Source: a virus
Lineage: Duplodnaviria; Caudoviricetes
Reading direction: 5' to 3' (one strand)
IMG/VR virus record: IMGVR_UViG_3300031994_000095
Coordinates: 1,584 to 65,583 of that record
Length of the DNA stretch: 64,000 nucleotides
Part shown: positions 9,871 to 64,000 of the stretch, one piece after another
Layout: every line of letters begins with the position of its first letter
How positions within the stretch are numbered: position 1 is the stretch's first letter
Position numbers and translations under genes: made by a program
The notes under the pieces: model-generated
The model's input: only the letters and a program-made list of their open reading frames with translations
Told to the model about the DNA's origin: nothing
Databases searched by the model: none

Positions 9871-11034
9871 CTACTTGAAAAACTTGACTCGACCAAAAAT
9901 ATCTTCCACATCCCTCTCGCTCTTCCGCAAATACTTGAGCAGACTCGCCAAGTTCTTGTGACCGCTAACCACCATTATCTGACGCATCGGCACTCCTTCC
10001 TGATCGAGCAATGTACACAGAGTCCTCCGGCAAGTGTGGCTCGACACCATCTTCCATTTCGGCACTCGCTTCTGCACATACCCCTCGCCCTTCGACTCCC
10101 GCACCTCGACCATATCGTTGATCCCTGCCTTCATACACACGGTCTTGACCTCTCTGTTGAACACCACCTGGCCGACCTCTGGGGCTTTCCCTCCGTTGCG
10201 CCTCAATGCCGTCTTCAGCCGTGGGGACAACGGCAGCACAACCCTCTCGCCGGTCTTCCGCTGGATGTAACGGAACTTCCCGTCAACGATGTTGTCAAGG
10301 GTGAAGGTGGAGAAGTCCTCGAACCTCGCGCCGGTGTAACACCCGATGATGAGGAGGTCGCGCACCATCTTCTCCATCCCGTCCGTCAGTTCCAAGTTCC
10401 ATAACTTGTCAAGCTCCGTCTTGGTGAGGTACACGGAGTCGGTATCATTGGCTGGCTTCCTGAACTCGCGGAACTCCTCATTGGAATGGTACTTGAGTTT
10501 CAAGCCCTCCATCATCACCGCCTTGACCTTTGCGATGACGCTCCCTTGGTAGTTCTTGGAGTATTTCTCCGCGTTCATCCTCTCGACCAGACGGAAGTAC
10601 CACGCGGAGTCGATGCCGTCCCAGCCCGCAGATGTACCCATCAGACGGACGAGAAGGTTGTAGGTGTTGCGCCGTTGTCTCTTGGCGGGATTGTCCTTCG
10701 ATGCCCAATCATCGAAATATTGCCAAAATGAGGGGCGTTTCTTGGCATTATAGGCTGGAAGTGGGGTCTCGCTCCACTTGCCGTCCTTAACCCTCGCCAA
10801 AGCCTCGGAAATGGCTTTCTCGGACGAGAACTCGTCAAGGCAGGATTCGAGACCGATGCGGATGAGACGCAGGGCATTGTCCTTGGAGTATTCGCCCGTG
10901 CGCTTGCCGTTCCAATTCTTCGTCTTGGTGGTGATGCCAACGCTCTTCCTCCAGACCTTCCCGCGATGGGTGATGACCACACGGATCGGGGACTCCTCCC
11001 TGGAGGGGAAGACCAAATTGTAGTAGATGTTCAT
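9871..11034 (-). CDS. int: Tyrosine integrase
   Basis: Arm-binding N-terminus; YTGARFED (R), SHTCRR (HxxR), SGHK and KY. Confidence 0.92.
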   Translation of the reverse strand: MNIYYNLVFPSREESPIRVVITHRGKVWRKSVGITTKTKNWNGKRTGEYSKDNALRLIRIGLESCLDEFSSEKAISEALARVKDGKWSETPLPAYNAKKRPSFWQYFDDWASKDNPAKRQRRNTYNLLVRLMGTSAGWDGIDSAWYFRLVERMNAEKYSKNYQGSVIAKVKAVMMEGLKLKYHSNEEFREFRKPANDTDSVYLTKTELDKLWNLELTDGMEKMVRDLLIIGCYTGARFEDFSTFTLDNIVDGKFRYIQRKTGERVVLPLSPRLKTALRRNGGKAPEVGQVVFNREVKTVCMKAGINDMVEVRESKGEGYVQKRVPKWKMVSSHTCRRTLCTLLDQEGVPMRQIMVVSGHKNLASLLKYLRKSERDVEDIFGRVKFFK

Positions 11035-12004: not shown

Positions 12005-12469
12005 CTTGTCCATCGCCTTGAACAACGTGTCGAGTCCGTTGTCCTCGGCGAGAGCCTTGACGAACTCCGTGTCCTCGACCATCTTCCTGGGTCTGCCCCT
12101 CTTGCCGGTCGGGACTGTACCATTCACCACCTGCTTTGTGGTGCTGGCATTGCGCTTGCGCCTCTTCTTTGCGGTGGCTTTCTTCTTCGCCTCCTTTTCC
12201 GCTTTCTCCTTGGCTTTCTTTTCCTCCTCGCGCATCTTGGCGAGTTGGCGGGTGAGGTCATCCCGTTGTCTGCGTATCTTGTCCTCCTCGGACTCGATGG
12301 GCTTGTCCTTGGCACTCCAAACGGTCTTCAGCACGGTGCATCCGTACTCCGACGATGCCCGCTCGTCGATGCCCACCACCTGGATGTTCCTGCCACCCTC
12401 GCTCTGGATGGTCACGTTCTCGGTCGGATAACGCACCGAGAGCATTTCTATAAGTTCTTTCGCTGTCAT
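11996..12469 (-). CDS. Hypothetical protein (basic, coiled coil)
   Basis: Start trimmed to MTAKEL; phage-like codon use. Confidence 0.65.
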   Translation of the reverse strand: MTAKELIEMLSVRYPTENVTIQSEGGRNIQVVGIDERASSEYGCTVLKTVWSAKDKPIESEEDKIRRQRDDLTRQLAKMREEEKKAKEKAEKEAKKKATAKKRRKRNASTTKQVVNGTVPTGKRGRPRKMVEDTEFVKALAEDNGLDTLFKAMDKSE

Positions 12470-12517
12470 ACACAACAAAGTTACAATAAATTCGCAATAA
12501 TTTCCTAACTTTGTGGT

Positions 12518-13054
12518 ATGAGTAAGAAACTGAAAGATTTATCCGACATCGAGAAGGCGGCTCTCTTGTGGGGATTCTACACCACTCCTGACAAGAAGAA
12601 CGGATCGCTTTGGTCCCAGATGTTCGACCTCTGCCATCCGGGCAAGGAGTACTCCACGGACATCTCCAAGAAGAATGTCATCTCCGAATGGCGCAATTCG
12701 CCCTCGGTGGTGTCCTTCTGGAATGGCATCCAGGCTACCGAGGACAACCGCGTTGAGTCCCGCGTCCGTTCCGAACTCGCCAAGCTCGGTCCGATGGAGA
12801 ACAAGCCGACAACATCCGCGCTCGTTGACAAGGTGCGTGACTTCACCGATGTCAACCAGTTCATCGCCTTCCTTAACGAACAAGCCAACACCATCTCCGA
12901 CGAGAAGGACAAGAGGGAGTATCTGAAGATGCTCTCCGACCTGATGCGGTTCAAGGAGGGTAGCCAGACGCAGGAGGACATTATGAGGGTGTACCTCCCC
13001 CTGCGATGCTCGGAGTGTGTCCTGTACAAAAAAGAAAAGGCGAAGGTCAAATAG
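12518..13054 (+). CDS. Hypothetical protein, possible terminase small subunit
   Basis: Has its own TAACTTTG box (12506-12513) and shares the ACAATAA repeat with the terminase and lysis promoters. C-terminal CxxC. Function is inferred only. Confidence 0.5.
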   Translation: MSKKLKDLSDIEKAALLWGFYTTPDKKNGSLWSQMFDLCHPGKEYSTDISKKNVISEWRNSPSVVSFWNGIQATEDNRVESRVRSELAKLGPMENKPTTSALVDKVRDFTDVNQFIAFLNEQANTISDEKDKREYLKMLSDLMRFKEGSQTQEDIMRVYLPLRCSECVLYKKEKAKVK

Positions 13055-13128
13055 ACCCCCGCCCTGCTTCGTTCGTTCGGACACACCGTCACCCTCGGTC
13101 TGCCTCGTTTGCCCTCCCCCTTGCTCGT

Positions 13129-13368
13129 TTAAGGTCGGAAAGGAGTATTGTCTCCGTCAAGAATCCACAACAGTTTCTCGATGCGTTCAAGTGGCATGGG
13201 AATCTGACCCCGGAGTGCCGTGGAAATACTCGCACGGGCGACACCGAGACGCTTGGCGATAACGCCGTGGCTGATGCCTTCCTCTTTCAGTCTGCGGGCA
13301 ATATAGCCCCTTAAGTCCACCCGTCCCATCTCGGAAACCGGAGTGTTAAGCCTTTCTTCTCTTGTCAT
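13129..13368 (-). CDS. XRE-family HTH regulator
   Basis: GISHGVIAKRLGVARASISTALRG. Confidence 0.8.
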   Translation of the reverse strand: MTREERLNTPVSEMGRVDLRGYIARRLKEEGISHGVIAKRLGVARASISTALRGQIPMPLERIEKLLWILDGDNTPFRP

Positions 13369-13387
13369 GGTTGTCAAAGTTATGGAT

Positions 13388-14299
13388 TTATCTGAAAAGT
13401 GCCAGCGATTTTTCGTTCAATTTGACCTCACGGCGGCAAACATACCTCGAAGTCATAGCCGTTCCCGTGTGACCGAGAATATCTCGTATGTCCGTCAGGG
13501 GTGTGCCGTTCGCGCTCAAGTTCGTGGCGACACTGATTCGTGCCGAGTGCGAGGAGATGAATTTCCACTTCGGCCCTACCTCGTCCTTGCCACCCTTATG
13601 CACCTTGACTTGCTCGTCGATACCGGCACGCTTGCACAGTCGGCGTATCGTCTTGTTGAAGGTCGCAGTGTCCACCACCTTGCCGTTCGTTCGGAGCCAG
13701 CGCAACCGCGCCACCGTCCTGTTCGAGCAAGGGATTGATGCCGTTATGCCCGTTTTCTTCGACGTGTAGGTCAAGGTCGTGCCGTCCACGTTCTCCTCGG
13801 TCAGTTCGCGGATGTCGCTCAACCTCGCCCCCGTTTTCGTTCCGACAAGAAACTCGTTCAGCACGATTCGTTCGACAGTCGTTCGGGTGGGTACTCGTTC
13901 GAGTCGTTCGAGTTCTGATTCGTTCAGGTAGGTTTTCACGGGTGCTTCCCCTTTGAGTCGGAGGATGGTGGCGTAGTCCTTGCACGGGATCACCCCTTCG
14001 TCCTCGTATCTCCTGAGTAACGCAACCAGGGATGCCGCCACGGTCTTAGCGGAGGATGGGGCCAGGGACTGCCGGAGCTCGTCGCGGAGATTCATAACCC
14101 CGGCCCGTGTCAAGTCCGAAAAGTCCCGTATCTTGGCGTTACGGAGGTGTTTTGATATGGTGGCCGCCTGGAGCCCTGCGTGCTTCTGTACGGCCTCAAA
14201 AATCGTATCCATAGGCATTGTTAATTCATCCACCCGTTGCGATTCTCCCAAGCCTTGACGGACTTGATAGCTGCCGTCCTTGTTAGGCCGTTCTCGCAT
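13388..14299 (-). CDS. Second tyrosine recombinase (no arm domain)
   Basis: TGARLSD, SHSAR, ILGH and RY catalytic residues. The true start may be ~30 codons downstream. Confidence 0.88.
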   Translation of the reverse strand: MRERPNKDGSYQVRQGLGESQRVDELTMPMDTIFEAVQKHAGLQAATISKHLRNAKIRDFSDLTRAGVMNLRDELRQSLAPSSAKTVAASLVALLRRYEDEGVIPCKDYATILRLKGEAPVKTYLNESELERLERVPTRTTVERIVLNEFLVGTKTGARLSDIRELTEENVDGTTLTYTSKKTGITASIPCSNRTVARLRWLRTNGKVVDTATFNKTIRRLCKRAGIDEQVKVHKGGKDEVGPKWKFISSHSARISVATNLSANGTPLTDIRDILGHTGTAMTSRYVCRREVKLNEKSLALFR

Positions 14300-58818: not shown

Positions 58819-60921
58819 CTAAAACACGTCATCGGGCATATCCTGCCCATCCGCTTGAGCAAAGAACTTGTCATACTCCGTTTGGTTGTTCCATCCACCA
58901 TCGGCGGGTGGTGGCGGTGGTATATCCGAAGGCTCCATCCATCCGTAGTGAATCTGCTCCGCGATGTCATTCTTGAGGCGGTTGGACTCAATCTCGAACC
59001 AGAGCTTAATGAAGTGGTCGGTAGCCGCACCCTTGTCACGGCACTTGCATATCTCTACGGCATTGGTGCATCCCGAATCCTTGATGTCCGCGATAGTCCC
59101 CTTGTCGAGAAACTCCTTGGCGGCAGTCTGAAAGTCGCGGTTAATGCGATGGATAATCATCGTGTTCTGCGCGATGTCGGGCAAGTGGCCAGAGCCGGAT
59201 ATTGAGTTCATACGAAGGAAGCCACCCGACTTATTGGGATGTGCGATGATATGGATGTGGATATTGAGTTCAATGGCAAGGTAGTGGATGCGCTTCATAA
59301 ACTCCTTCTGCGCCTTCCAGATGTCGCGGTCAAGTTCGTCGATGTCCAAGATGGTAAGGTTGTCAAGGAACACCTGGTCGATATGCTCCTTGAGGACAAT
59401 CTCGCGGATGTCGGCTTCAAGGGTGTCGTATCGGTCATTGTACTCGTTGTTGTACAACCATAGGTATTGGTCAATCCACGGGTCTATCTTCGCGGCTACG
59501 TCCTTTGGCGTGTAGTAGAAGTTATTGTACTGCGATGGTTTGTTCTTGCTCTTTCCTGCGGCTTGCAAGTAGAGCCAATTCTTGAACTCACCGTCACTAA
59601 GTTCCCCCGTCCACACCGCCGACTTGTAACCAAGATTGGCACAATTAAGTACCAACTGCGATATGATGGTTGACTTGGCACTTCCACGATAACCCGACCA
59701 TAGGGTGACTTGCTTGCGCTTGAACCCGATGATGAGGTCATCAAGTTGTCCGATGCCCGTGGGGATATACTCGGATGGGTCGAACTCCAGCTTAGGGATC
59801 TCGGACATCCGCTTCCATTTCTTGCCCTTGGTTGGCGTTTCTTGTTGCGGTGCGGATGGCTGTACCTCATCGCGTCTCCACGTGCGTTGTAGTTGCGCTT
59901 GTGTGCCGTATCGCTTGTCGTAGCATCCGGGTTCAAGTCTCTCGCGTAGTGTGTGCCAATCATTGCCTTGACACGAATTGTGGAAGCAGAAATAAGCCAC
60001 CGCACCACTCTTGTGTTGGAACAAGACCGCATCTTTTCCCTTGTGGTTCGGATTGAACAAGCAATGGTCGAGGATGTACCGCGTACCATCTGCCACCTCG
60101 ATGCGTTTCACCACCTCGATGCCGTGTCTTTGGATGAAGTCCTCAAGGTCGAACTTCTGCAACGAGTAGTTATTGAACCTTGATGGCTTTTCCTCCTCGG
60201 GGTAGAGGGTGGCGATGCGCTCAAAGTAGGAACGATGGTTTTTCTTTATCTCCGTTGGGACGGACAATATCTTGCACATCCGTCGGGGACGGTCCTCGCT
60301 GTCCGCGCTACCCTTGTTGGAGAATGTCCCCGGCAACTTGGCGATGCGTGATGCGTTATAGACCGATGTGTCCACCTTGACGTGTTCATCGGAGAACTGC
60401 ATTGACATCGCATAGGTGAACCGCTTTACAAGCTCCTCGTCCTCATTGGTGTTCTTGAGGTCACAAGGGATGAAAATGTGATACCCATTTGCCGAGTCAT
60501 TGACAATGCCATCGTAGAAACCCTCGCGCCGTAGGTAGGCGAATATCTCGCGGCATTTGAGTAGTGCGAAGTGCTTTTCCTCATCGGTGGAGTTGACATC
60601 GGATACACCCGTCACGCAGTCGAGGTCGAGGAGGACGAATCGTCTTGCCTCGATGTCGGCATCGGCGGTCGTAGCCAACTTCCCGCCCATCGGCATACAC
60701 TCGCATTGCTTTCGCCCATAGCAAGCCTCCTTGGGGGTATTGATGGTGAAATAGACCGCACCTTTGTGTGCGTTGGCATCGACATCACGGATAAGGTTAT
60801 TGATGTCCTTATAGTAGCCGGAGTCGGTGTATTTTCCCACGATGCGAATCTCGGTAAGTTCGCCTCCGTTTTGGAATATCTGCCACCACGCGTGTACCTG
60901 TTGTATTTGCTCCTCTGTCAT
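58819..60921 (-). CDS. Primase (AEP/PrimPol)-SF4 helicase fusion
   Basis: LLDLDC, SANGYHIF, RIAKLPGT; Walker A GYRGSAKST, VFLDNL and HIIAHPNK. Confidence 0.8.
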   Translation of the reverse strand: MTEEQIQQVHAWWQIFQNGGELTEIRIVGKYTDSGYYKDINNLIRDVDANAHKGAVYFTINTPKEACYGRKQCECMPMGGKLATTADADIEARRFVLLDLDCVTGVSDVNSTDEEKHFALLKCREIFAYLRREGFYDGIVNDSANGYHIFIPCDLKNTNEDEELVKRFTYAMSMQFSDEHVKVDTSVYNASRIAKLPGTFSNKGSADSEDRPRRMCKILSVPTEIKKNHRSYFERIATLYPEEEKPSRFNNYSLQKFDLEDFIQRHGIEVVKRIEVADGTRYILDHCLFNPNHKGKDAVLFQHKSGAVAYFCFHNSCQGNDWHTLRERLEPGCYDKRYGTQAQLQRTWRRDEVQPSAPQQETPTKGKKWKRMSEIPKLEFDPSEYIPTGIGQLDDLIIGFKRKQVTLWSGYRGSAKSTIISQLVLNCANLGYKSAVWTGELSDGEFKNWLYLQAAGKSKNKPSQYNNFYYTPKDVAAKIDPWIDQYLWLYNNEYNDRYDTLEADIREIVLKEHIDQVFLDNLTILDIDELDRDIWKAQKEFMKRIHYLAIELNIHIHIIAHPNKSGGFLRMNSISGSGHLPDIAQNTMIIHRINRDFQTAAKEFLDKGTIADIKDSGCTNAVEICKCRDKGAATDHFIKLWFEIESNRLKNDIAEQIHYGWMEPSDIPPPPPADGGWNNQTEYDKFFAQADGQDMPDDVF

Positions 60922-61322
60922 TAGAATAAGTCTCCTTCTTCAAGGTCGGGCATATTGTTTAAGAACGTTGAAAAGTTCCGTAGGTATGCCCCCGTCTCTT
61001 CCCTGGTATCCACCTCTTGTCGGATGAGGGCAAGCAGTTGTTCCTTGGTGTACTTGCCTTTGGCGAGAAGGTTTCGTATGTGTTGTTTGTCCTTCTGCCC
61101 TTTACCCGTAGGTCGGTTGCCGTTGTTGGCATCCCGGCTTGGGTATGCGTTATACACCTCAAGTACATCCGCATCCTCATCGGAGGTTATGGTCTTTTGT
61201 GTTGGCCATTTGCTCTCCGCTTGGGCTTGCCAATCGGCGAGTATCTCGTCTATTGCGAGACCCGTCTGCTCTTGATAGAGTGTGGCAAGTCCATAGAGAA
61301 CGACCTTCTCGAATTGTGTCAT
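60921..61322 (-). CDS. Hypothetical replication-associated protein
   Basis: VYNAYP...YLRNFSTFLNN. Confidence 0.6.
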   Translation of the reverse strand: MTQFEKVVLYGLATLYQEQTGLAIDEILADWQAQAESKWPTQKTITSDEDADVLEVYNAYPSRDANNGNRPTGKGQKDKQHIRNLLAKGKYTKEQLLALIRQEVDTREETGAYLRNFSTFLNNMPDLEEGDLF

Positions 61323-61489
61323 AGTTTCTTGATGTCTGCCCAGTCGGGGATGGGTGTTTTGTCGAGGGCGACGTACTTGTCGCCGACCTTCTTACACTTG
61401 ACGGTTACTTTGATAACGTTCCCGTCCTGCCGTGCGTTCCACGATGCGAGGTAGTACACCTCTTTCTTGATGGGTTTCTTTGTTGCCAT
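61319..61489 (-). CDS. Hypothetical basic protein (56 aa)
   Basis: Manual translation; ATGA overlap. Confidence 0.5.
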   Translation of the reverse strand: MATKKPIKKEVYYLASWNARQDGNVIKVTVKCKKVGDKYVALDKTPIPDWADIKKL

Positions 61490-61491
61490 AT

Positions 61492-61746
61492 CTAAAAGTT
61501 ATTGATGTCGATTTCTTGGACGAAAGTCAACTTGCCACGATAGCCTCGCCTTGCAAGCTCTGCCATAAGGTCACGCGGTGTGAATTGGTCAAGGGGTTGT
61601 GTGCGCCTTGAGAGAAGGTCATCACCGATGCGCTTGACATTTTGGAGTGCCTTTTCGCCCGCACCGAACTTTACCATAGCCTCCTCAATGGTGTGGGTCT
61701 TGAGATAGTCATAGACCTCACAGTTGTTAAGTTTCTTTCGATTCAT
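61492..61746 (-). CDS. Hypothetical protein
   Basis: LDQFTPRDLMAELARRGYRGKL. Confidence 0.65.
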   Translation of the reverse strand: MNRKKLNNCEVYDYLKTHTIEEAMVKFGAGEKALQNVKRIGDDLLSRRTQPLDQFTPRDLMAELARRGYRGKLTFVQEIDINNF

Positions 61747-61770
61747 ATTAGATGTGTTTAGAAGTTTAGG

Positions 61771-61840
61771 AGGGGTGGCGGGACTCGAACCCGCACCTTA
61801 AATGTTCCATTTCGCCGGATGCATCACGGACTCCACCCCT
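61771..61840 (-). ncRNA. tRNA-like RNA with a 3-nt anticodon loop
   Basis: AGGGGTG/CACCCCT acceptor, AAATG-GAA-CATTT arm, AAGGT variable loop and GCGGG-TTCGAGT-CCCGC T arm. Confidence 0.6.
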
Positions 61841-61848
61841 CTGATTGT

Positions 61849-62589
61849 TTAACCTTTCTGCCATTCGGGGAAATGAACCCCAAGTGTGCCGAAAATCGTA
61901 GTCGGAGAATCGGGTGTCAGCAAGTACCAAAATCCGTTGGCAACGTGCAGACCTTCCCCATTGTCCATCCACTGGATCGTGAAGTCCGTCTGGCTACCGA
62001 GAAGGTTGTCCTTCGGACTCACACGAACGTGGTAGGTCATCTCCGCATTGAGCCTCGTACATCTCGCATACGCCACCGACAAGTCATCGGTAAAGGACAA
62101 CTCGGTGTAAGTCCTTTCTGCCGTCTTGTGTTCCACCTTGCCCGTGACCGTCATATCGAACACCAGGGCGATGCAGTCATAGATGGCATCCACGAGGTAG
62201 TTGGTATCATCCTCCGTGATGACAAGTTCCTGGTCAACGTGGAACGGCGGCTCGGAGAAGAGGTTTGCGGAATAGGCATCGGCTATCTTCGGTGCGGTGT
62301 ATTCTCCAAAGACCGTGTAAGTGCCGATGGGAAGGTCTATTGGTTCGTTGACCGTGACCGTGTAGATGTTCCCATTCTCCTTGGATGTGAGTTTCAGTGC
62401 CATTGTCCTTGACATCGTGGTGTTGTCGAGTACGGACTTGACCTCGGCATCGGATGCCTTTGTCATACTGCCGGACTGTACTTGCTTGATACCGATGGTG
62501 ACGGTGTTGACGGGTGTGGGGATGGAGGTCTCCTTGTTGCAGGATGCGAGTCCGAGGACTCCGATGAGAAGTGCTAAAACTTTCTTCAT
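61849..62589 (-). CDS. Lipoprotein
   Basis: Signal peptide II MKKVLALLIGVLGLAS-C. Confidence 0.75.
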   Translation of the reverse strand: MKKVLALLIGVLGLASCNKETSIPTPVNTVTIGIKQVQSGSMTKASDAEVKSVLDNTTMSRTMALKLTSKENGNIYTVTVNEPIDLPIGTYTVFGEYTAPKIADAYSANLFSEPPFHVDQELVITEDDTNYLVDAIYDCIALVFDMTVTGKVEHKTAERTYTELSFTDDLSVAYARCTRLNAEMTYHVRVSPKDNLLGSQTDFTIQWMDNGEGLHVANGFWYLLTPDSPTTIFGTLGVHFPEWQKG

Positions 62590-62668
62590 AACGTTTTGGT
62601 TTTGTGATGAATTGTTTGTAAATTAGTGTTGCACTAAACGTTATGATAGAAAGAGTTAGACTCTTGTT

Positions 62669-63127
62669 TTAGTCCAGAAACAACTTCATCTGGCTAATGA
62701 TCTCGCCAAGTTCCGATAATGTGCGATACTTTGATGTAAAGCACTCCATATCGTGCTTGGCGCAGTCCATTAAATACCGCTTCGCATACTCGTTGTTGGA
62801 TGCATCGTTGATGGGGACATAGGATGCTTTCTCGCCCGGAGCATTGGCTACACTCACGAACGCCCTGACCTTGCACTTTATCTCCTCACGTTCGACAGTG
62901 ACAACGATACTGCGAATGAGAGCCTTTGCTTGGTTGACTCTCCACGAATCGGCTGCCTTCTTGTCATCCCATTCAAAAATGGAATGTAGCACCGAGGAGT
63001 CGTCTTTCGACTCTTCCACGACTTTCTCTGCTTCGAGAGTTCCGTACTTTTCACGGATTCTCTCAAGTTCTTTCCCTGCTACTTCTGCGGGGACTTTGTA
63101 GATACCTTGAATTGTGTATGAATACAT
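62669..63127 (-). CDS. Accessory gene downstream of the GGY-NN array
   Basis: 152-aa ORF starting 15 nt after the array; LHSIFEWDDKKAADSWRVNQAKALIRSI. Confidence 0.7.
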   Translation of the reverse strand: MYSYTIQGIYKVPAEVAGKELERIREKYGTLEAEKVVEESKDDSSVLHSIFEWDDKKAADSWRVNQAKALIRSIVVTVEREEIKCKVRAFVSVANAPGEKASYVPINDASNNEYAKRYLMDCAKHDMECFTSKYRTLSELGEIISQMKLFLD

Positions 63128-63142
63128 AGTTATTGAAAATTA

Positions 63143-63555
63143 AAACAAGCCGTGACATACCGAGCCTTGCCGAGTCAAAACTGACCGTGCCCCTCCTGCC
63201 GGAACGTGCCTCGCCTTACCCCGCCACACCTTAACCAACCGCACCTTGCCATACCAAACCACTCCTGCCCCGCCATACCTTGCCACACCAAAACGGGACA
63301 GACCCGACCCCACCCCACCTTGCCATACCAGTCCTGCCGAAACTCGCCCAACCACGCCTGGCCTTACCCGACCGTGCCTCGCCGTACCTCTCCTGCCGAA
63401 CCAAACCCCGCCGTAACATACCTCGCGCTATCGCACCCCACCTGAACACACCTCGCCACTCCTGCCAGACCTAAACGGGCCAAACCTGAACGTGCCCTAC
63501 CTCGCCACGCCTCACCTCGCCAGACCAAAACGGAACTAACCCAACCATTCCTGCC
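63143..63555 (-). ncRNA. GGY-NN pentamer array in six GGCAGGA-delimited units (VIPR-like guide array)
   Basis: GGCAGGA at 63549, 63460, 63391, 63332, 63263 and 63194 (left coordinates). Spacings 89/69/59/69/69 all equal 9+5n. Confidence 0.85.
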
Positions 63556-63559
63556 GTGA

Positions 63560-64000
63560 TTAGTCGCTCACAACTTGGAACAAGCCGAACGAACCGCTGT
63601 TGCACTTCTCTGGTCTCCACTCTCCAACTCCGCAAGTGAATCCTGCCGTGTTGAGAAGAGTGAGCAACTTTTCGGGAGTGATGACACCTTCGAGGTACTG
63701 GATGGTGATGTTCGCCCACCATTCGGGATACTCGGCACGATAGCGAGGGGAAGAGGTCTTGCTGATGCCACCGACCTTGACCACATCGCAGCGCATCCTC
63801 GGCTCTCCGTGGATTTCGATGAGTCCCGTCTCACGGTCATCGGCAATAACGTGGAACTTGGTACGGAGGTCAACCATAACCTCTCCACAAGTCTTTCCTG
63901 CACGAACCATCGCGGACTTGAAACCGACTGCGGGGAATCCCGTGCGGGCACCATCGGAGAGATAGTAGAAAGTCTTGGCGTTCTCCTGCTCCGGCGTGGG
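63560..64000 (-). CDS. RAMP/Cas7-like (Vipr-like) protein, 5'-truncated by the window edge
   Basis: The frame is open to 64000: ...GFPAVGFKSAMVRAG...RMRCDVVKVG...RYRAEYPEW...GVGEWRPEK..GSFGLF. Has a P...K.A motif and a terminal Gly-rich loop. Confidence 0.7.
   Translation of the reverse strand, partial: PTPEQENAKTFYYLSDGARTGFPAVGFKSAMVRAGKTCGEVMVDLRTKFHVIADDRETGLIEIHGEPRMRCDVVKVGGISKTSSPRYRAEYPEWWANITIQYLEGVITPEKLLTLLNTAGFTCGVGEWRPEKCNSGSFGLFQVVSD

What the first reader, a model, noticed from the sequence alone, without database searches (positions are those of the whole stretch)
63143..64000. RAMP/Cas7-like gene followed by a GGY-NN pentamer array: candidate RNA-guided system with a non-contiguous code
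Seen in sequence: 5 nt after the stop of a minus-strand gene begins a 413-bp tract with strict 5-nt periodicity. A conserved trinucleotide (mostly GGT/GGC, some GTT, rare GAT/CGC/GTC/GAC) alternates with a freely variable dinucleotide. GGCAGGA punctuates it into six units with 17, 13, 11, 13, 13 and about 11 variable NN positions, and all spacings fit 9+5n. The upstream protein has GFPAVGFKSAM and a terminal GVGEWRPEK..GSFG loop. Established: these resemble the P..s.KGa motif and Gly-rich loop of RAMP/Cas7 RNA-binding proteins, which polymerise along guide RNA with a fixed per-subunit step. Inference: one subunit binds each GGY, the NN pairs are displayed for target pairing, and GGCAGGA marks processing or boundary sites. 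No cas1/2, nuclease or canonical CRISPR repeat is in the window, so repression of rival phages or host genes is the likely role. This matches my recollection of the recently reported phage VIPR systems, which I cannot verify here.
Basis: partly seen in the sequence, partly recalled or inferred. Interest (0 to 1): 0.96.

Follow-up and report, generated by a model that had tools for sequence, protein, structure and literature searches.

The report
Phage VIPR guide-RNA locus
This is a real example of the phage VIPR system first described in 2026: a lone Cas7-like protein plus guide RNAs written in five-letter GGY-NN repeats. It sits in a sheep-gut temperate phage, probably silences regulator genes of sibling phages, and is a new member of a known kind.

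Summary
A 413-nt minus-strand tract (63555 to 63143) consists of GGY-NN pentamers. Six GGCAGGA motifs punctuate it at spacings of 89, 69, 59, 69 and 69 nt. None of this is expected by chance.

The upstream gene is a Vipr protein. It matches the solved SUSP1 Vipr (profile E 2e-9, hhalign 97%). Its predicted fold matches Csm3/Cas7 (Z about 10). The gene is not truncated. It wraps across a 145-bp terminal repeat of a complete 65.6-kb temperate phage.

GGCAGG junctions with a minus-one register slip recur in 87 related loci. This fits the "staggered" vrRNA arrays named in the VIPR preprint. It differs from the tailed SUSP1 type.

The 152-aa gene after the array is the conserved accessory gene. It lies next to vipr in about 100 of 119 loci.

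Under the published one-base-skip rule only, guide 1 matches a winged-helix regulator gene of sibling phages in wobble register: 29 of 34 in the best sibling and 24 of 34 in the phage's own allele. Guides 4 and 5 tile an HTH_17 gene that this phage lacks.

Sheep-gut metatranscriptome contigs carry the locus.

This scan has already noted VIPR in at least 236 other genomes.

The parts
63560..64000 (-). vipr gene, C-terminal 146 codons. The first 61 codons lie outside the window in the record's first 328 bases (L002:146-328, minus strand); the full length is about 207 aa.
   Evidence: ORF. Terminal repeat. phrog_4652. SUSP1 Vipr chain 36pp_D matches at E 5.8e-6 for the single sequence and 2.4e-9 for the profile. 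hhalign gives 97.4% probability. An AlphaFold model of a 96%-identical homologue has pLDDT 82.9. All its top fold matches are Csm3/Cas7, with Z 10.2, rmsd 3.5 and 148 residues aligned.
63143..63555 (-). vrRNA array of six guide units. U1 63467-63555, U2 63398-63466, U3 63339-63397, U4 63270-63338, U5 63201-63269, U6 about 63143-63200. Each unit starts with GGCAGGA. Read with a one-base overlap at GGCAG|G, units 1-5 are 18, 14, 12, 14 and 14 whole pentamers.
   Evidence: Family-wide junction statistics. No RNA structure beyond shuffles, z +0.53. No Rfam family. RNA-library contigs cover 63374-63706 and 62852-63185.
62669..63127 (-). Conserved accessory gene (vap-like), 152 aa. Its ATG lies 16 nt after the last pentamer.
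   Evidence: tblastn finds homologues beside vipr in about 100 of 119 related loci. phrog_15946. AlphaFold pLDDT 95.4. The N-terminal half is weakly winged-helix-like, best Z 5.5. No Pfam family. No similarity to SUSP1 Vap1.

Best explanation
The locus is a VIPR system of a temperate tailed phage from the sheep gut, probably with a Bacteroidales host. It has three parts in one minus-strand unit: vipr, a six-guide vrRNA array, and a conserved 152-aa accessory gene.

By homology with the solved SUSP1 system, Vipr protomers bind one per pentamer along each guide. They sequester each GGY and present the NN pairs. The filament then binds double-stranded DNA whose sequence reads NN-x-NN-x (one base skipped), which blocks transcription.

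The array has no structured 3' tail. Units are delimited only by GGCAG|G junctions, where the register slips by one base. This is the 'staggered' architecture, so each guide is a whole number of pentamers ending in GGC-AG.

The inferred targets are allelic variants of early regulator genes in sibling phages. Guide 1 reads a winged-helix regulator gene in codon register. Guides 4 and 5 tile the recognition-helix region of an HTH_17 (excisionase/AlpA-like) gene that this phage lacks. The phage's own allele of the guide-1 site falls below the published 80% match threshold.

Shown here: homology, fold, array anatomy, family-wide conservation, and the statistical target matches. Inferred: guide processing, filament assembly, silencing, and the identity of the true targets.
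For: Protein: the SUSP1 Vipr chain is the only significant PDB sequence match, with hhalign probability 97.4% and E 1e-11. The G-loop (C-G-V-G-E-W-R-P) and the thumb arginine align with SUSP1 C173, D177, W178, R179 and R138, the residues that contact the GG bases. The fold matches Csm3/Cas7 at Z about 10, and all top 50 matches are CRISPR RAMPs.

Array: statistics. The closest relative (90% identical Vipr, L003) has the same GGCAGGA-punctuated array with entirely different NN content. Across 281 units in 87 loci, anchored only on GGCAGG, the inner pentamers read G 0.92, G 0.79, Y 0.94, with 0.06 and 0.03 bits at the two NN positions. Units hold 8-19 pentamers, mode 11-12. GGCAGG spacings are 4 mod 5 in 271 of 422 cases.

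Context: 74 of the 80 IMG/VR loci carry pentamer runs, all but three runs on the vipr strand. The accessory gene is conserved. The genome has an integrase, portal, terminase and capsid gene, no Cas1 and no CRISPR-like repeats.

Targets: only skip 1 gives significant hits. U1 scores 29/34 on contig L134 (expected 3e-9), 27/34 on G001 and L130, 26/34 on G405, and 24/34 on its own allele. Every hit is at the same codon-phase-0 site of the winged-helix gene. The permutation null gave 0 of 400 for U1 and 0.0025 for U4. U4 and U5 fall on adjacent sites of the G001 HTH_17 gene. A database homologue matches the decoded peptide at 19 of 22 positions.

RNA: sheep-gut metatranscriptome contigs, 100% identical, cover 61839-63185 and 63374-63865. 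One bridges the vipr 3' end and array units 1-3. None covers 60000-61838.
Against: No data show the RNA ends. The RNA evidence consists of assembled contigs from one sample, which cannot give strand, ends or level, and could include DNA carry-over.

No guide has a perfect target. Exact-pattern scans of IMG/VR for U2, U3 and U4 found nothing, as did a U4 scan of 401 Bacteroidales genomes. Seed scans for U1 in IMG/VR and in the metagenome collection found only the 27/34 allele. U2, U3 and U6 have no candidate target.

The first pentamer of each unit is GGA, a purine where the SUSP1 pocket excludes purines. Ten of 62 scaffold triplets are GTT. The column of SUSP1 H17 holds Asn in this clade. The accessory protein is unrelated in sequence to Vap1, so its role cannot be transferred. 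I could not see the preprint's figure S18 or its type tables, so the assignment to 'staggered' rests on a legend.
Confidence: 0.9

Rival explanations
1. The system is a working VIPR, but its guides act mainly on something other than sibling-phage regulator genes: host genes, satellites or defence genes not present in the collections searched. On this view the wHTH and HTH_17 matches are leftovers of guide ancestry rather than current targets.
For: No perfect target was found for any guide. U2, U3 and U6 have no candidate. The U1 matches decline with phylogenetic distance, as a homology footprint would (29, 27, 26, 24 of 34).
Against: The U1 match on L134 is 85%, above the 80% threshold used in the preprint. 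It is in wobble register and appears only with skip 1. Two further guides tile one HTH_17 gene. Regulator genes of rival prophages are the main target class reported for the Pseudomonas fulva clade.
Confidence: 0.12
2. The array is inactive or is a decoy: a decaying remnant, or guides meant to load a rival phage's Vipr rather than the phage's own, as described for solo vrRNAs.
For: The scaffold is degenerate: 13 of 62 triplets in units 1-5 are not GGY, and every unit starts with GGA. The October 2026 preprint documents decoy and solo vrRNAs.
Against: An intact vipr and the conserved accessory gene flank the array. The same architecture is kept in the 90%-identical relative, with renewed NN content. 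GTT makes up 16% of scaffold position 2 across the whole family. The locus is present in RNA libraries.
Confidence: 0.05
3. The tract is not a guide array. It would be either a translated Gly/Val/Arg-rich protein or a DNA-level repeat such as iterons, a packaging site or G-quadruplex DNA.
For: Open frames of 54-83 codons cross the tract. The strand is G-rich.
Against: Signal at period 3 is nil (0.07) and the constraint has period 5. A one-base slip at each junction breaks any reading frame. The NN positions carry 0.03-0.06 bits across 87 loci while the GGY positions are fixed, which no coding or iteron model predicts. The tract always lies on the vipr strand.
Confidence: 0.02

Closest known systems
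VIPR systems with 'staggered' vrRNA arrays (bioRxiv 10.64898/2026.04.26.720920, fig. S18 legend)
   Same: A lone Vipr RAMP, a two-gene locus, and GGY/NN pentamer guides. Neighbouring guides overlap by one base, so the end of one marks the start of the next. Here that junction is GGCAG|G, with spacings of 9+5n.
   Different: The base after the junction is A here (GGA), against C, G or T in 501 of 516 family junctions. The array lies between vipr and the accessory gene rather than after both. The preprint reports no experimental confirmation of staggered arrays. I could not see its figure or type tables, so the type number is not assigned.
Type II VIPR of Escherichia phage SUSP1 (Vipr YP_009199429.1, PDB 36pp; Vap1; four vrRNAs)
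   Same: The Vipr is homologous, and the G-loop and thumb residues that hold the GG bases are conserved. Guides hold about 11-12 pentamers. The one-base-skip rule fits. The system is phage-borne and aimed at rival elements.
   Different: SUSP1 guides end in a roughly 40-nt hairpin/pseudoknot tail and have no GGCAGG, whereas these have no tail and no structure. Only the C-terminal third aligns by sequence. The G-loop carries a six-residue insertion. The H17 column holds Asn. The accessory protein is unrelated to Vap1.
CRISPR class 1 backbone subunits (Csm3/Cas7 of types III and VII, Cas7-11)
   Same: The RRM core, thumb and glycine-rich loop fold, at Z 9-10 over about 150 residues. One subunit binds per fixed step along the guide, and thumbs interrupt pairing.
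   Different: Sequence identity is 7-16%. There is no cas1, cas2, cas10 or repeat-spacer array. The step is 5 nt, with 3 bases hidden and 2 read, rather than 6 nt with 1 flipped. The published target is dsDNA, read with a gap.

Membership tests
VIPR system | A Vipr protein homologous to experimentally characterised Vipr | tested here: met
   The SUSP1 Vipr chain 36pp_D is the only significant PDB sequence hit, at E 5.8e-6 (single sequence) and 2.4e-9 (profile). hhalign gives 97.4% probability and E 1e-11 over 64 C-terminal residues.
VIPR system | A single-RRM RAMP fold with thumb and glycine-rich loop | tested here: met
   The model has pLDDT 82.9. Foldseek's top hits are all Csm3/Cas7, at E 1e-4 and probability 1.0. 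VIA gives Z 10.2, rmsd 3.5 and 148 residues aligned, and all top 50 matches are CRISPR RAMPs. The model was made on a 96%-identical homologue, because the window's own gene is split across the record ends.
VIPR system | Residues that bind G1, G2 and Y3 of the scaffold (SUSP1 H17, R138, C173, D177, W178, R179, M72) | tested here: inconclusive
   R138, C173, W178, R179 and M72 are conserved. D177 is Glu. The H17 column holds Asn in this clade, although His is usual elsewhere in the family. K33 could not be aligned.
VIPR system | An adjacent same-strand array of 9-16 GGY/NN pentamers with conserved GGY and hypervariable NN | tested here: met
   for the window. The closest relative has a different NN set. 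The anchored logo over 87 loci gives 1.50, 1.06 and 0.72 bits at the scaffold positions and 0.06 and 0.03 bits at the NN positions. Unit 1 has 18 pentamers, slightly above the published range.
VIPR system | A minimal locus with a vipr-accessory gene and no cas genes or CRISPR array | tested here: met
   The 152-aa gene lies beside vipr in about 100 of 119 loci. There is no Cas1 and no CRISPR-like direct repeats. Which of the published vap1-6 families it belongs to could not be determined. It is not Vap1.
VIPR system | Viral or proviral carrier | tested here: met
   The IMG/VR record is rated 100% complete and has a 145-bp terminal repeat. It encodes an integrase, portal, large terminase, major head protein and primase-helicase.
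VIPR system | Guides read DNA by the one-base-skip rule (NN-x-NN) | tested here: met
   This was tested in silico only. Significant matches appear with skip 1 and not with skips 0, 2 or 3. U1 scores 29/34, 27/34 and 26/34 in sibling phages, in wobble register.
VIPR system | vrRNAs are expressed, processed to unit length, and bound by Vipr | not testable with these tools
   Only assembled contigs of RNA libraries from one sheep-gut sample were available. They cover the locus and bridge vipr and the array, but they cannot show ends or strand.
Type II (SUSP1-like) VIPR | A conserved structured 3' tail (hairpin/pseudoknot) after each repeat tract, and a Vap1 accessory protein | tested here: not met
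   There is no tail. Units abut at GGCAGGA. The fold z-score is +0.53. SUSP1 tails are visible in L132 and there is no GGCAGG there. The accessory protein shows no similarity to Vap1.
CRISPR-Cas | A repeat-spacer array with cas1/cas2 adaptation genes and multi-gene effector modules | tested here: not met
   The only RAMP gene is vipr.

The most novel reading that the evidence does not exclude
In this large tail-less clade, the one-base register slip at GGCAG|G is itself the unit delimiter. Vipr filaments would be phased and ended by the slip, and guides would be released by trimming between filaments, with no ribozyme, structured tail or Cas6-like cut. The array would then work as an allele-discriminating weapon among sibling temperate phages, silencing a rival's winged-helix and HTH_17 regulators (85% NN match) while sparing the phage's own allele (71%).
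Probability: 0.35. Interest if true: 0.5.

Novelty: new member of a known kind. Interest (0 to 1): 0.3.

Why it matters
The finding adds a complete, well-delimited VIPR locus from a ruminant-gut temperate phage, in the tail-less 'staggered' class that the preprint names without reporting an experimental test. It offers three things to test.

- An exact prediction of guide ends: 60-, 70- and 90-nt species that end in GGC-AG.
- A natural self/non-self pair for one guide: 24/34 on the phage's own allele against 29/34 on a sibling allele of the same regulator gene.
- A conserved, well-folding accessory protein family unrelated to Vap1.

None of this changes the known picture of VIPR. It extends that picture to another host group and gives handles for studying how tail-less guides are made.

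Tried and rejected
- **Fourier test.** A whole-tract Fourier test at period 5 was unimpressive (1.5 against a shuffle mean of 0.7), because junctions shift the phase. I replaced it with pattern tests.
- **Wrong accessory candidate.** I first took the winged-helix gene just upstream of vipr (L002:341-688) as the accessory gene. I rejected this because it is not linked to vipr in other loci and lies 2.4 kb away in the sibling phage. It turned out to be the homologue of guide 1's target.
- **Exact-pattern scans.** IMG/VR gave nothing for full U4, U2 and U3. A U1 seed pattern found only the G001 allele in IMG/VR, and two contigs with that same allele in JGI metagenomes.
- **Host genomes.** U4 with up to 3 mismatches gave no hit in 401 Bacteroidales genomes. 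Read this as not found in those searched.
- **Sibling guides.** Guides of the sibling phage G001 have no significant site in this genome.
- **Self-targeting.** No site in this genome reaches 80% NN identity.
- **Single-protein locus searches.** Searches with the two target proteins returned only G001.
- The DNA of the best protein-level alleles (P0132, P0133, P0135, P0137, P0144) could therefore not be scored.
- **Cultured phages.** GenBank holds only relatives about 30% identical, in Mycobacterium and Gordonia phages, which gives no host clue.
- **Other negatives.** Rfam found no family in the tract. The sigma-70 promoter and terminator scan was uninformative. For the accessory protein, PDB fold searches gave only weak winged-helix resemblances of Z 5.5 or less, and Pfam, PDB sequence and Atlas searches gave no function.
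- **RNA coverage gap.** RNA contigs do not cover 63216-63349. This is a gap in coverage and not a finding.

Full report
**What is there.** On the minus strand, the stop codon of a gene lies at 63560-63562. Four bases later a tract starts at 63555 and runs to about 63143. Read 5' to 3', it is six units, each made of GGCAGGA, then NN, then a trinucleotide plus NN repeated. The GGCAGGA copies start at 63555, 63466, 63397, 63338, 63269 and 63200. The spacings are 89, 69, 59, 69 and 69 nt, all of the form 9+5n. In units 1-5 the in-phase trinucleotides are GGT 30, GGC 19, GTT 10 and three singletons, and all sixteen dinucleotides occur at the NN positions. Six consecutive GKY-NN pentamers occur 36 times in the 64-kb window, all inside this tract and all on the minus strand, against none in 100 shuffles. 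GGCAGGA-NN-GGY occurs 6 times against 0.22 expected. There is no period-3 signal. The RNA folds no better than shuffles, z +0.53, and no Rfam family matches.

**The gene is whole.** The window is bases 1584-65583 of a 65,583-base IMG/VR virus record rated 100% complete. Window 63856-64000 repeats record bases 1-145 with one mismatch. The gene therefore continues in the record's first 328 bases, with its ATG at L002:328, giving a protein of about 207 residues. The genome encodes an integrase, portal, large terminase, major head protein and primase-helicase, so the carrier is a temperate tailed phage. It has no Cas1 and no CRISPR-like repeats. The closest chromosomal relatives of the protein are in uncultured Bacteroidales and Bacteroidetes assemblies, at 47% and 43% identity. 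The DNA is held by sheep- and bovine-gut runs.

**The protein is a Vipr.** Pfam finds nothing, and PHROGs places it in phrog_4652, of unknown function. Against all PDB sequences the only significant match is the SUSP1 Vipr protein (36pp), at E 5.8e-6 for the single sequence and 2.4e-9 for a 45-sequence profile. hhalign against the SUSP1 gene product gives 97.4% probability. In a joint alignment, the thumb arginine and the G-loop C-G-V-G-(D/E)-W-R-P are conserved. The cryo-EM preprint describes these as the residues that hold G1 and G2 of each GGY. The H17 column holds Asn in this clade, and the G-loop carries a six-residue insertion. An AlphaFold model of a 96%-identical full-length homologue has pLDDT 82.9. 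It matches only CRISPR backbone RAMPs: Foldseek E 1e-4 with probability 1.0, and VIA Z 10.2, rmsd 3.5 and 148 aligned residues to Csm3, with all top 50 hits being Cas7-class proteins.

**VIPR is already published.** Three preprints describe it. The first (10.64898/2026.04.26.720920) covers the discovery, the GGY/NN code, the one-base-skip rule, seven types and vap1-6. The second (.720927) gives cryo-EM structures showing one protomer per repeat. The third (10.64898/2026.10.15.759431) covers competition with satellites and solo guides.

**The array type.** SUSP1 guides are 11-12 pentamers followed by a structured tail and contain no GGCAGG. This array has no tail. The 9-nt junction can be read as two pentamers that share one G: GGC-AG, then G-GA-NN. 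On that reading each guide is a whole number of pentamers (18, 14, 12, 14, 14). This fits the preprint's legend for 'staggered' arrays, where vrRNAs derive from positions that overlap by one nucleotide. The text names sRNA-seq confirmation only for ribozyme and single-guide systems.

The junction is family-wide. In arrays of 80 related loci, GGCAGG spacings are 4 mod 5 in 271 of 422 cases, mostly 49-69 nt. The next base is C 320, G 102, T 79 and A 15, so the GGA seen here is a rare variant. I anchored only on GGCAGG and pooled 281 units from 87 loci. The inner pentamers then read G 0.92, G 0.79 (T 0.16) and Y 0.94, with 0.06 and 0.03 bits at the two NN positions and a mode of 11-12 pentamers per unit. 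The closest relative (L003, in record G001, with a 90% identical Vipr) has seven GGCAGGA units and an unrelated set of NN pairs. In 74 of the 80 IMG/VR loci, pentamer runs accompany vipr, nearly all on its strand.

**The accessory gene.** The 152-aa gene that starts 16 nt after the last pentamer (62669-63127) has homologues directly beside vipr in about 100 of 119 loci. That makes it the conserved vipr-accessory gene of this clade. It folds confidently (pLDDT 95.4). Its N-terminal half resembles winged-helix DNA- or Z-DNA-binding domains only weakly, at Z 5.5 or below. It has no Pfam family and no detectable similarity to SUSP1 Vap1. The winged-helix gene just upstream of vipr is not linked to vipr elsewhere.

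**Targets.** I scored each guide as its NN pairs joined by 0-3 wildcards, the method used in the preprints. No site in the phage's own genome reaches 80%.

- **Sibling phage G001, skip 1.** Only skip 1 gives significant hits. U1 scores 27/34 (expected 6e-6). U4 scores 20/26 and U5 19/26. Shuffled-guide nulls gave 0 of 400 for U1, 0.0025 for U4 and 0.05 for U5.
- **Guide 1.** The U1 site lies in codon phase 0, so the skipped base is the wobble base. It sits in the sibling's copy of the winged-helix gene that stands just upstream of vipr in this phage. On another VIPR-bearing contig (L134, whose Vipr is 57% identical) the same site scores 29/34, or 85% (expected 3e-9). It scores 26/34 in G405, and 24/34 (71%) in G406 and in the phage's own allele. 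All of these appear with skip 1 only. Protein homologues vary at exactly the positions the guide reads.
- **Guides 4 and 5.** U4 and U5 fall on adjacent, partly overlapping sites on opposite strands of a 118-aa HTH_17 gene (Pfam E 1.5e-13). This phage lacks that gene. The 22-residue peptide they spell matches only HTH_17 in Pfam (E 6e-4). One database homologue fits it at 19 of 22 positions, against 16 for G001.
- **What was not found.** No perfect target was found, and U2, U3 and U6 have no candidate.

The reading that sibling-phage regulators are the targets is therefore an inference with fair support for U1 and weaker support for U4 and U5. It agrees with the target class reported for the Pseudomonas fulva clade.

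**Expression.** Two metatranscriptome runs from one sheep-gut sample hold contigs 100% identical to 61839-63185 and 63374-63865. One 333-nt contig bridges the vipr 3' end and units 1-3. There are none for 60000-61838, which the DNA run covers. This is a weak hint that the vipr, array, accessory and lipoprotein stretch is transcribed. Contigs cannot show strand, ends or abundance.

**Verdict.** The locus is a new member of a known, recently described kind, in the tail-less staggered class. This scan has already noted VIPR loci in at least 236 other genomes, so the interest is modest. What this locus adds is a precise prediction of guide ends, a natural self/non-self allele pair for one guide, and a conserved accessory family unrelated to Vap1.

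Noticed in passing
window 63856-64000 = record bases 1-145 (L002:1-145): The record has a 145-bp terminal direct repeat, although IMG/VR classes it as linear without end repeats. The two copies differ at one base, which changes a Vipr codon (Asn against Tyr).
   Followed up: partly
window 61849-62589 (-): A lipoprotein gene (246 aa, Bacteroidetes-type signal peptide) lies downstream of the accessory gene. It is the best-covered stretch in the sheep-gut RNA-library contigs (depth 13). It may be a prophage-expressed moron, for example for superinfection exclusion.
   Followed up: no
L002:341-688 (-), record bases 341-688, outside the window: A 115-aa winged-helix protein (weak HTH_11 match; one source calls a homologue 'biotin operon repressor'). 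Its sibling alleles carry the guide-1 target site, and its homologues vary at exactly the codons that the guide reads.
   Followed up: yes
G001 (L125) 12132-13624 compared with the window: The sibling phage has three genes between the lipoprotein gene and vipr: a 232-aa gene, the HTH_17 gene and a 98-aa gene. This phage lacks all three, and the vipr neighbourhood is rearranged between the two phages.
   Followed up: partly
window 9871-11034 (-): A tyrosine-integrase-like gene (phrog_1) suggests a temperate lifestyle. No attachment site was sought.
   Followed up: no
GenBank phages: About 30 Mycobacterium and Gordonia phages (for example Saal, Quico, Ecliptus and UmaThurman) encode proteins annotated as hypothetical that are 30-39% identical to this Vipr family.
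   Followed up: no
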